The notes under the pieces are model-generated. The model did no database searches, had not been told where the DNA came from, and was given only the letters and a program-made list of their open reading frames with translations. Below, in pieces: positions 473 through 1,098 of a stretch of 13,784 nt of DNA (positions are counted from its first letter, which is position 1; the number at the start of each line of letters is the position of its first letter). A program made the position numbers and the translations under genes. The DNA lies in IMG/VR virus record IMGVR_UViG_2548876856_000011, positions 1-13,784 of that record, one strand, 5' to 3'. This stretch comes from a virus. Its lineage: Duplodnaviria > Heunggongvirae > Uroviricota > Caudoviricetes.

Positions 473-676
473 TTAGACTTCGATCGATTCAGAGATCTCT
501 AATGCATCATCAACTTCTATACCCAGATAACGAACTGTGCTTTCCGTTTTCTTATGGCCCAACGGAAGTTGGATCACCCGGAGATTCTTAGTTTTCTTGC
601 AGACAAGGCAAGGTTTTGTTCTTCTCATGGAATGTGTGCTGTAAAGCGAATCTTCGAGACCAAGCTTTTCTCCCCC
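473..676 (-). pseudogene. C-terminal fragment of a tyrosine recombinase (integrase remnant); upstream part degraded
   Basis: Minus-strand translation ending at stop 473..475 reads ...LYSTHSMRRTKPCLVCKKTKNLRVIQLPLGHKKTESTVRYLGIEVDDALEISESIEV: H-x-x-R, LGH and the Y of tyrosine-recombinase box II are in frame. An in-frame TAG lies just upstream at 677..679, and the ORFs at 588..770 and 841..1041 are in other frames, so no intact N-terminal or box I region is present. Confidence 0.5.
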
Positions 677-1098
677 CTATGAAAGATTCGGTTATATTGC
701 AGGATTGATATGTGTTGGTTAGTACCGACCCGAGATCGGAACAAGTAGTCTTTACTGCGTAAATTGCCAAGCTTTATCAATGCAGAAACAGCTTCTCTTG
801 TCCCTTTGGTTATCTCAAATTGGATAGGACTGCCAGTTTTTCAGTTGCAACACCGTAGCTCTGCTTGAAACCGAGCTAAATCACGCGTTTTACCTTCCAG
901 TTCAAGCCGGATTTGGAGCCCCCAGATATGAGATATCTGAAGTGGTCTTTTTGGGCCTATGATACTGTCTTTGTTCCTCGGTGACGTATTCATACTCAAA
1001 TCTCCTGCAATGTGGAAGATTTGAGTATGGTTGTCTCTCAAGAGCGAAATAGGTCAACTATAACTAGTTGTTGTGCATGTACGAATTCTGCCAATTAA

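What the first reader, a model, noticed from the sequence alone, without database searches (positions are those of the whole stretch)
473..1041. Third tyrosine recombinase in the window, present only as a fossil
The final ~68 codons keep the catalytic H-x-x-R, LGH and Y in one frame, but an in-frame TAG sits at 677..679 and the upstream sequence is broken across other frames. It marks a past recombination event inside the prophage and may explain how the adjacent cargo gene arrived.
Basis: seen in the sequence. Interest (0 to 1): 0.45.

Follow-up and report, generated by a model that had tools for sequence, protein, structure and literature searches.

The report
Dead cassette recombinase in prophage hotspot
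This is a broken copy of a small DNA-recombinase gene in a prophage "cargo" hotspot; intact relatives sit next to short DNA sites that bound swappable anti-phage gene cassettes, which probably explains how its neighbouring cargo genes arrived.

Summary
Window 473..993 (minus strand) is a pseudogene of a 200-aa, catalytic-domain-only tyrosine recombinase. It aligns to intact family members at E=6e-93. RefSeq already annotates the same locus in E. coli E2348/69 as "frameshifted; internal stop".

Lesions:
- an 82-nt deletion at 876/877 that removes catalytic Arg-I
- a +1 insertion near 841, with TGA at 841-843
- a -1 deletion at 671/672, with TAG at 677-679

It is not a phage integrase. The intact family has about 8000 protein clusters and occurs in at least 545 species. 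Each intact gene is a compact unit with a hairpin that sequesters the ribosome-binding site. The unit lies between two 24-bp palindromic sites: B (GTCCGCTyyTCGCTCAnAGCGGAC) and A (GTCCGCTynGTGCCArnAGCGGAC).

The same A and B sites bound 0.5-7 kb cassettes, mostly anti-phage genes, in P2-like hotspots, lambdoid hotspots and CP4-44-like islands. Site polymorphisms place the crossovers inside the 6-bp cores.

In the window the system is dead. The gene is broken, the B site has lost its outer arm, and the hotspot A site (2293-2316) carries six point changes. DUF5677 and Septu are frozen on either side.

The P2 repeats were annotated in GenBank records AJ512676-85, which I attribute from memory to Nilsson et al. 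2004. The link to this recombinase, and the mechanism, are inferred here and not demonstrated.

The parts
473..993 (-). Pseudogene of a 200-aa catalytic-domain-only tyrosine recombinase. It starts at ATG 991-993 and ends at TAA 473-475. Only 39 N-terminal codons (877-993) and 67 C-terminal codons (476-676) remain in uninterrupted ancestral frames.
876..877 (-). Junction of an 82-nt deletion. It removes ancestral codons 40-67, including catalytic Arg-I in the motif KLRGCDL.
841..843 (-). TGA stop in the frame of the ATG, inside the segment shifted by the deletion. A +1 insertion at about 841 restores the ancestral frame after it.
671..679 (-). A -1 deletion in a G run (671/672) and the TAG at 677-679 that closes the C-terminal frame upstream.
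992..1028 (-). Leader hairpin (14-9-14 inverted repeat with one mismatch here) that pairs the Shine-Dalgarno sequence and the ATG. It is a family-wide feature.
   Evidence: window leader folds at -18.9 kcal/mol
1033..1057 (-). Remnant of the B-type site (TTGACCTA-TTTCGCTCT-TGAGAGAC). The core and inner arm are recognisable; the outer (cargo-side) arm is lost, as in the S88 copy.
445..472 (-). GC-rich hairpin directly after the stop codon (CAGGGCTGC-N4-GCAGCCCTG), conserved family-wide. G-U-compatible changes suggest it acts at RNA level.
431..454 (-). A-type site at the 3' end of the unit (AGCAGCCC-TGTGCCAA-GAGCGTAC). Core and outer arm are present, with one arm mismatch. It forms the border with the Septu cargo.
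1099..2258 (-). DUF5677 cargo gene (1099-1941) plus 317 bp of conserved upstream DNA. It moves with the recombinase as one block between lambdoid and P2-like prophages.
2293..2316 (-). Decayed A site of the lambdoid hotspot (GTTTGCTT-TGTGTAAG-AAACGGAT). It has six point changes hitting both arms and the core. Its flank (2319-2341) is homologous to intact hotspots.
1..60 (-). Start of ptuA. The Septu PtuA/PtuB cargo lies on the other side of the pseudogene and continues beyond the window.

Best explanation
Window 473..993 is an inactivated copy of a 200-aa 'simple' tyrosine recombinase with no arm-binding or core-binding domain. In intact relatives the gene is a roughly 700-bp unit: B site, leader with an SD-sequestering hairpin, CDS, GC hairpin, A site. 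The unit occupies a junction between gene cassettes. A and B are 9-6-9 palindromic sites with the same arms but different 6-bp cores (GTGCCA and TCGCTC). Cassettes have the form A-cargo-B, and adjacent cassettes are joined by B-18 nt-A. I infer that the recombinase cuts and rejoins within the cores. Cassettes would then be swapped between any hotspots that carry the same pair of sites: the P2 Z/fun locus, the lambdoid slot between the replication genes and hokD, and CP4-44-like islands. This resembles recombinase-mediated cassette exchange between heterospecific sites. In this prophage the machinery has decayed. The gene lost Arg-I and its frame, the B site lost its outer arm (fusing DUF5677 to the recombinase), and the hotspot A site mutated. 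DUF5677 and Septu are therefore fixed in place. What is shown: the pseudogene and its lesions, the family architecture, the sites, the cassette structure, the defence cargo, and the position of the crossovers. What is inferred: that this recombinase acts on these sites, and that the mode is exchange.
For: Pseudogene and lesions. Family size and conservation. Shared unit across five contexts. SD hairpin: compensatory arm changes; SD fully paired in 48 of 74 leaders. Terminal inverted repeats flank the gene family-wide, up to 61 bp, with 0/30 shuffles reaching the score. Site enrichment: 29 vs 3.4 expected in E. coli loci; 39 vs 2 in distant loci; more than 120 viral contigs with exact 20-base matches. 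B-18 nt-A register in at least 14 junctions, with the recombinase flanked by B and A. The intact lambdoid relative L014 has a full array in the same hotspot flanks as the window. Synteny breaks exactly at the unit ends, and a solo site precedes the dynamin cargo where the gene is absent. The same cargo occurs in P2, lambdoid and array contexts with homology ending at the sites. Outer arms follow the flank and inner arms follow the cargo, so exchange lies within positions 10-15. Cargo is mostly defence families.
Against: There is no experimental evidence that this protein acts on these sites. Only 2-3 of 80 site-bearing viral loci encode the recombinase, so it would have to act in trans; it occurs in 958 of 5426 E. 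coli genomes. No unoccupied hotspot was found. The same-cargo/different-flank comparison rests on only 5 and 7 pairs. In distant lineages the full A/B sites were not resolved, only the shared motif and the inverted repeats. Neither the recombinase nor DUF5677 matches any PADLOC model.
Confidence: 0.8

Rival explanations
1. The fossil is the leftover integrase of an older prophage or island that fused with this prophage. It would mark a phage-phage junction, not a cargo-handling enzyme.
For: It lies in a mosaic region that includes truncated DUF1627 and DUF977 fragments and, just outside the window, an IS481.
Against: The intact family is only 200 aa with no arm-binding or SAM-like domain, unlike the two real integrases in the window. 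It never sits at element ends next to tRNA genes. It sits inside cargo regions of prophages, islands, ICEs and plasmids. The hotspot flanks are the same as in related prophages that carry an intact array.
Confidence: 0.04
2. The A/B palindromes are structural or regulatory elements, such as terminators or REP-like repeats. Cassettes would be swapped by homologous or Red/RecET-type recombination on these short repeats, and the small recombinase would be just another passenger.
For: Most site-bearing phage loci lack the recombinase. The 2026 P2/P4 hotspot study considers homologous recombination among the possible mechanisms and reports no dedicated system. G-U-tolerant changes in the 3' hairpin point to an RNA-level role for that element.
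Against: The 9-6-9 geometry with two distinct invariant 6-bp cores is classic tyrosine-recombinase site architecture. Crossovers map inside the 6-bp cores and are not spread over the repeats. The recombinase gene is embedded between a B and an A site in most enterobacterial copies examined (L015 and L028 have lost the B outer arm) and is flanked by matching inverted repeats in distant lineages. The sites are not followed by a T-run.
Confidence: 0.12
3. The locus is still functional, either through programmed frameshifting/readthrough or as a short C-terminal peptide or regulatory RNA.
For: The leader hairpin, the 3' hairpin and the last 67 codons are well preserved. The arrangement is 99.5-100% identical in about 19 genomes.
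Against: The 82-nt deletion removes Arg-I and about 28 codons of the catalytic core, which recoding cannot restore. There are two stops and two frame changes. There is no start codon or SD for the C-terminal piece. The high identity among carriers reflects recent common descent of the prophage region. Another copy (L019) is independently a pseudogene.
Confidence: 0.03

Closest known systems
Inverted repeats flanking the Z/fun inserts of P2-like coliphages (GenBank AJ512676-AJ512685; I attribute these records from memory to Nilsson, Karlsson & Haggard-Ljungquist 2004, Mol Biol Evol 21:1)
   Same: These are the same DNA sites. My A site lies at 92-115 and my B site at 1942-1965 of P2-EC30, inside the annotated 'left inverted repeat' and the right repeat region. 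The paper's title, seen in reference lists, proposes site-specific recombination.
   Different: I could not read the paper, so I do not know whether it named a recombinase. Shown here but not evident from the record: the 9-6-9 structure with two cores, the B-18 nt-A arrays, the presence in lambdoid hotspots and CP4-44-like islands, and the gene of a 200-aa recombinase embedded between B and A. Later hotspot papers do not mention the sites.
Integrons (IntI, attI, attC cassettes)
   Same: A tyrosine recombinase is associated with arrays of short promoter-poor cassettes delimited by recombination sites. Cassettes often encode defence genes.
   Different: The protein is 200 aa versus about 320-340 aa for IntI, and there is no match to the integron-integrase model at its threshold. 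The sites are 24-bp duplex-type palindromes of two kinds, not 60-140-bp folded attC hairpins. The recombinase sits inside a junction, not at the end of the array next to attI.
pdif modules of Acinetobacter plasmids (XerC/XerD sites)
   Same: Modules of 1-3 genes are bounded by inversely related short recombination sites and are found in many backbones.
   Different: pdif modules use host XerCD and dif-like 11-6-11 sites. Here the sites are unrelated to dif, and a dedicated small recombinase gene is part of the array. This comparison rests on my own knowledge and was not tested.
R64 shufflon (Rci recombinase, sfx sites)
   Same: The sfx core is 5'-GTGCCAA-3' with one conserved and one variable arm. 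The A-site core is GTGCCA(A/G), and the copy next to the recombinase also has one variable arm.
   Different: Rci is much larger (my own knowledge) and only inverts pilV segments. The arms differ (TCCGGTACGTGG vs AGCGGAC). Protein homology was not tested.
FimB/FimE-type small tyrosine invertases
   Same: Similar size, about 200 aa, with essentially only the catalytic domain.
   Different: The match to the invertase model NF007371 is weak: E=2.5e-4, 20.6 bits against a cutoff of 222. The best, still sub-threshold, matches are Xer-type.
Engineered recombinase-mediated cassette exchange (heterospecific lox/FRT)
   Same: Two sites have identical arms but incompatible spacers flanking a cassette. 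This favours exchange over excision.
   Different: That is a laboratory design. Here it is a natural arrangement, and its operation is inferred only.

Membership tests
Tyrosine recombinase / phage integrase superfamily (PF00589) | Significant match to the catalytic-domain profile | tested here: met
   The repaired translation scores 32.9 bits against a cutoff of 27.1. Intact relatives carry PF00589. phrog_216 integrase matches at 7.7e-28.
Tyrosine recombinase / phage integrase superfamily (PF00589) | Complete catalytic set R-K-H-x-x-R-H/W-Y in one reading frame (needed for an active member) | tested here: not met
   Intact family members have R51, K79, H148, R151, H174 and Y183 (read). In the window, R51 is deleted and the remaining residues are split over two frames with TGA and TAG stops. 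It is therefore a pseudogene of the family, not an active member.
Phage/island integrases of lambda-Int or P4 type | N-terminal arm-binding and/or SAM-like core-binding domains; location at an element end next to attL/attR | tested here: not met
   There are no such domains in the 200-aa family, and the gene is located internally in hotspots. The window's two true integrases have these domains and lie next to tRNA-Ser and tRNA-Asn.
Integron integrase (IntI) | Match to the integron-integrase model at threshold, an adjacent attI, and attC-bounded cassettes | tested here: not met
   NF040815 scores 46.5 bits against a cutoff of 220. The sites are 24-bp palindromes, not attC.
FimB/FimE-type DNA invertases | Match to NF007371 at its cutoff | tested here: not met
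   20.6 bits against a cutoff of 222.
Site-bounded cassette system (A/B sites; P2 Z-region repeats) | Recombinase gene flanked by a B site at its 5' end and an A site at its 3' end | tested here: inconclusive
   In the window the A site is present (431-454, one arm mismatch), but the B site keeps only its core and inner arm (1033-1057). Most intact enterobacterial copies examined meet the feature; L015 and L028 have lost the B outer arm.
Site-bounded cassette system (A/B sites; P2 Z-region repeats) | Located in a hotspot whose borders carry the A and B sites | tested here: inconclusive
   The left border A site is recognisable by flank homology but has six substitutions (2293-2316). The right border lies outside the window and is not detectable in E2348/69, where an IS481 is adjacent.
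Site-bounded cassette system (A/B sites; P2 Z-region repeats) | The recombinase catalyses exchange at the A/B cores | not testable with these tools
   There is only comparative evidence: the crossover is confined to positions 10-15 of each site.
Known anti-phage defence systems (PADLOC v2) | Profile match for the recombinase or its DUF5677 partner | tested here: not met
   No hits for either protein. The left neighbour is Septu PtuA/PtuB at 1.9e-165 and 1.1e-83.

The most novel reading that the evidence does not exclude
The 200-aa recombinase family and its paired heterospecific 24-bp sites (cores GTGCCA and TCGCTC) form a natural recombinase-mediated cassette-exchange system. It would shuttle anti-phage and other accessory genes between P2-like phage hotspots, lambdoid prophage hotspots, CP4-44-type islands, ICEs and plasmids across Gamma- and Betaproteobacteria. 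This would be the missing mechanism for defence-gene swapping between unrelated mobile elements. The window holds a decayed example.
Probability: 0.45. Interest if true: 0.8.

Novelty: new variant of a known kind. Interest (0 to 1): 0.5.

Why it matters
The pseudogene itself is ordinary and already flagged in RefSeq. Tracing it, however, gives a concrete and testable candidate for how defence genes are exchanged between phage hotspots and unrelated mobile elements. A systematic P2/P4 hotspot study from September 2026 still lists that mechanism as unresolved. The candidate consists of defined 24-bp sites, a mapped 6-bp crossover region and a specific small recombinase. If confirmed, three things follow. 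Hotspot cargo could be delimited at base resolution. New defence genes could be predicted by their position between A and B sites. And the system would be a compact natural cassette-exchange tool. It would also revive an apparent 2004 proposal of site-specific recombination at this locus (title only seen) that the later hotspot papers I checked do not discuss.

Tried and rejected
1. K-12 Qin 'intK/ydfW' as a second fossil of this family: ydfW shows no homology, so I rejected it.
2. Rfam scan of 1-2700 at E<=1 for an RNA in the 317-bp DUF5677 upstream region: nothing found.
3. PADLOC and NCBIfam for the recombinase and DUF5677: no defence or equivalog match.
4. A second copy of the leader inverted repeat in the window, as a possible partner site: none. 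The repeat is better explained as an SD-sequestering hairpin.
5. Empty-site searches: flank chimera against E. coli genomes and a lambdoid hotspot pattern against viral contigs. No unoccupied site was found.
6. The Septu module elsewhere in E. coli next to an intact recombinase: it occurs only in the same lineage of about 19-22 genomes.
7. Literature searches by protein accession, by site sequence and by descriptive terms: no paper describes the recombinase-site link. The 2004 paper and Odegrip 2006 are not held.
8. PDB sequence search: no hit at E<=1e-3.
9. Cultured phages: no close homologue of the recombinase (best 58% identity).
10. My first reading of the unit as an IS-like element with terminal inverted repeats was replaced by the junction (B...A) model once full sites were found.

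Full report
**Setting**

The window is an E. coli chromosomal segment.
- From right to left it holds a P4-type integrase (12282-13559) next to tRNA-Asn (12056-12131), then mtfA (11119-11955), then tRNA-Ser (10975-11064).
- A lambdoid prophage follows, entered from its int end: int 9897-10922, xis, an 835-aa exonuclease, dicB/ydf genes, a cI-like repressor at 4994-5401, an O-like gene with a DnaT domain, and replication gene P at 2688-3353.
- Left of P the prophage backbone breaks down into fragments of DUF1627 (about 2450-2690) and DUF977 (about 2297-2447) genes.
- Then come a DUF5677 gene (1099-1941), the reported feature, and at the very edge the start of ptuA of a Septu system.

**The observation**

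On the minus strand, 473..676 is an open frame of 67 codons plus TAA. It reads ...STHSMRRTK...LPLGHKKTESTVRYLGIEVDDALEISESIEV, and the preceding codon is TAG at 677-679.
- The N-terminal part, MNTSPRNKDSIIGPKRPLQISHIWG..., lies in a different frame starting at ATG 991-993.
- Aligned to the copy in E. coli S88 that PGAP annotates as intact, and to the canonical 200-aa copy in 1EC187, the lesions are as follows:
  - an 82-nt deletion between 877 and 876 that removes ancestral codons 40-67
  - a resulting in-frame TGA at 841-843
  - a +1 insertion at about 841 that restores the ancestral frame
  - a -1 deletion at 671/672 that shifts it again
- The repaired translation matches family member P0001 with 138 identities at E=6e-93 and passes the Pfam PF00589 threshold.
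- In the intact family the catalytic residues are R51, K79, H148-x-x-R151, H174 and Y183 (sequences). R51 lies within the deletion, so no recoding could rescue activity.
- RefSeq annotates the same locus in E2348/69 as [quoted passage not shown].
- The arrangement is 99.5-100% identical in about 19 complete genomes. These include prophages with a different int/att module: potC in E2348/69 versus tRNA-Ser/mtfA here. The inactivation therefore predates the reshuffling of these prophages.

**What kind of recombinase**

It is not a phage integrase.
- The family is 200 aa with no arm-binding or core-binding domain. Its best, sub-threshold, NCBIfam matches are Xer-type, and there is no PDB relative by sequence.
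- It is very large and conserved. About 8000 protein clusters were scored, with 72-92% identity across Enterobacterales, Alteromonadales and others. Relatives occur in at least 545 species-representative genomes, reaching Betaproteobacteria at 60-65% identity.
- It is present in 958 of 5426 complete E. coli genomes.
- It never sits at element ends. It lies inside cargo regions of several element types:
  - the P2-like Z/fun slot of S88
  - the equivalent slot of another lambdoid prophage, 1EC187
  - CP4-44-type islands in STEC316, CFT073 and others
  - a Providencia island and a Cycloclasticus ICE
  - plasmids

**The conserved unit**

Across five unrelated contexts the only shared DNA is about 700 bp.
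- Just before the ATG is a hairpin that pairs the Shine-Dalgarno sequence. Its arms differ between lineages but stay complementary. The SD is fully paired in 48 of 74 distinct leaders, and the median z-score is -1.7. I read this as translational silencing, as in many transposase genes.
- Just after the stop is a GC hairpin followed by a conserved motif. The reverse complement of that motif lies upstream of the leader. In Pseudomonas and Betaproteobacteria these form inverted repeats of up to 25-61 bp, with 0/30 shuffles reaching the score.

**The sites**

The motif is half of a 24-bp palindromic site. There are two types with the same arms:
- A = GTCCGCTy-nGTGCCAr-nAGCGGAC
- B = GTCCGCTy-yTCGCTCA-nAGCGGAC

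Evidence for the sites:
- They are strongly enriched: 29 vs 3.4 expected in E. coli loci, and 39 vs 2 for the core motif in distant loci. More than 120 viral contigs hold exact matches to a pattern with 20 specified bases.
- Cassettes have the form A-cargo-B. Adjacent cassettes are joined by B-18 nt-A with a conserved linker, seen in at least 14 junctions.
- In most enterobacterial copies the recombinase gene lies between a B and an A site, so it occupies a junction rather than a cassette.
- In 1EC187 the lambdoid hotspot reads flank-A-cargo-B.A-cargo-B-[recombinase]-A-cargo-B-flank.

**Evidence that the sites are crossover points**

- Synteny among E. coli genomes breaks exactly at the unit's ends. 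110 genomes share both flanks, 232 share only the upstream flank, and at least one shares only the downstream flank.
- Where the dynamin cargo occurs without the recombinase gene, it is still preceded by a solo A site.
- Identical cargo occurs in different backbones with homology ending at the sites. A 984-bp cassette is found in a P2-type flank, in the lambdoid flank (9 loci) and inside an array. A 1917-bp cassette is found next to the recombinase and also as a single lambdoid cassette.
- Among 66 non-redundant cassettes, the variable site positions partition:
  - In A, positions 8-9 follow the flank and positions 16-17 follow the cargo.
  - In B, positions 1-9 follow the cargo and positions 16-21 follow the flank.
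  - Exchange is therefore confined to the invariant 6-bp cores, the expected overlap region of a tyrosine recombinase.
  - The same-cargo/different-flank sample is small (5 and 7 pairs).
- Two sites with identical arms but different cores flanking each cassette is the design used in engineered cassette exchange. I propose, as an inference, that the natural system works the same way.

**Cargo**

The 85 representative cassette proteins include many known or candidate defence proteins. Examples are PD-T7-1, PD-T7-5, Drt1a, ThsB, DarT/DarG, a type IV restriction enzyme (GmrSD), AbiH, HEC-08, several PDC candidates, and HEPN and TIR proteins. A few are metabolic genes.

**Back to the window**

- The hotspot's left flank (2319-2380) is homologous to that of intact lambdoid hotspots. 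The A site that should follow it is GTTTGCTT-TGTGTAAG-AAACGGAT (2293-2316), with six substitutions that affect both arms and the core.
- The DUF5677 block (2258-1099) follows.
- The B site expected between DUF5677 and the recombinase keeps its core and inner arm but has lost its outer arm (1033-1057). The S88 copy shows the same loss. This explains why DUF5677 and the recombinase travel as one 89-90% identical block in about 19 lambdoid and about 37 P2-like prophages. In S88 the distal end of that block is a full A site, and the P2 hotspot closes with a B site.
- The A site at the recombinase 3' end survives with one mismatch (431-454) and borders the Septu cargo. In E. coli that cargo is found only in this lineage.
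- The window therefore preserves a dead array: A'-[DUF5677]-B'-[recombinase']-A-[Septu]-...

**Prior knowledge**

- The same sites flank fun(Z) in phage P2 and occur in many cultured P2-like phages.
- GenBank records AJ512676-85 annotate them as inverted repeats. I attribute these records from memory to Nilsson et al. 2004. That paper's title, seen in reference lists, proposes site-specific recombination.
- I could not read that paper, so I cannot say whether it identified this recombinase.
- The 2022 and 2026 hotspot studies mention neither the sites nor the enzyme. The 2026 study lists the exchange mechanism as open.
- The A core equals the shufflon sfx core GTGCCAA. I have not evaluated this resemblance further.

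**Verdict**

- As an object, the pseudogene is ordinary and already annotated.
- Its family context is more interesting and only partly documented. It points to a candidate cassette-exchange system for phage-hotspot cargo.
- The enzymatic link between protein and sites remains untested.

Noticed in passing
window 1-60 (continues in L001 10065-12060): A Septu defence system (PtuA 1.9e-165, PtuB 1.1e-83 in PADLOC) directly abuts the A site at the pseudogene's 3' end. In complete E. coli genomes it occurs only together with this pseudogene arrangement, in about 19-22 genomes.
   Followed up: partly
window 1099-2258: The DUF5677 protein (phrog_4167, no PADLOC hit) has 317 bp of conserved, ORF-free upstream DNA with no Rfam match. 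A 2025 preprint lists a DUF5677 gene among recombinase-linked candidates chosen for anti-phage testing; I did not read the outcome. It is an untested defence candidate.
   Followed up: partly
window 992-1028; family loci L003-L099: A hairpin that sequesters the SD and start codon precedes the recombinase ATG across the family, with lineage-specific compensatory arm changes. This resembles translational control of transposase genes.
   Followed up: yes
window 9897-11064 and 12056-13559: The lambdoid prophage integrase abuts tRNA-Ser(CGA), and the P4-type integrase abuts tRNA-Asn. Two independent integrative elements therefore flank mtfA. E2348/69 carries the same early region and hotspot but a different int/xis module, inserted at potC.
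   Followed up: partly
L019 8001-8603 (E. coli 2013C-3181): Another copy of the recombinase, in a CP4-44-type island, is independently a pseudogene (internal stop). This suggests recurrent decay of the gene.
   Followed up: no
L002 5983-6567 (E. coli S88): The copy that PGAP annotates as intact (194 aa) has lost the last 7 canonical codons, the 3' hairpin and its A site; homology ends just after the catalytic Tyr. Its activity is therefore uncertain.
   Followed up: partly
junctions in L013, L014, L017-L021, L026, L100 and viral loci: The 18-nt linker between B and A sites is itself conserved (CTTCAGCTCAGTkAyhT). The functional element may therefore be a composite of about 66 bp rather than two independent sites.
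   Followed up: partly
L040, L043, L050, L054, L081 (distant family loci): Solo copies of the GCCArrAGCrG motif are preceded by recurring left contexts (TTTACACAGyCTG..., TTTCAACAGAATC...). These may be lineage-specific site variants or ends of other elements.
   Followed up: no
A-site core vs R64 shufflon: The A-site core GTGCCA(A/G) is identical to the Rci sfx core GTGCCAA. As in sfx, the A copy next to the recombinase has one conserved and one variable arm. A possible evolutionary link was not examined.
   Followed up: partly
L016 6175-6324 (K-12 Qin prophage ydfW, which I recalled as 'intK'): It occupies the equivalent slot between flxA and dicC but shows no similarity to this recombinase family.
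   Followed up: yes
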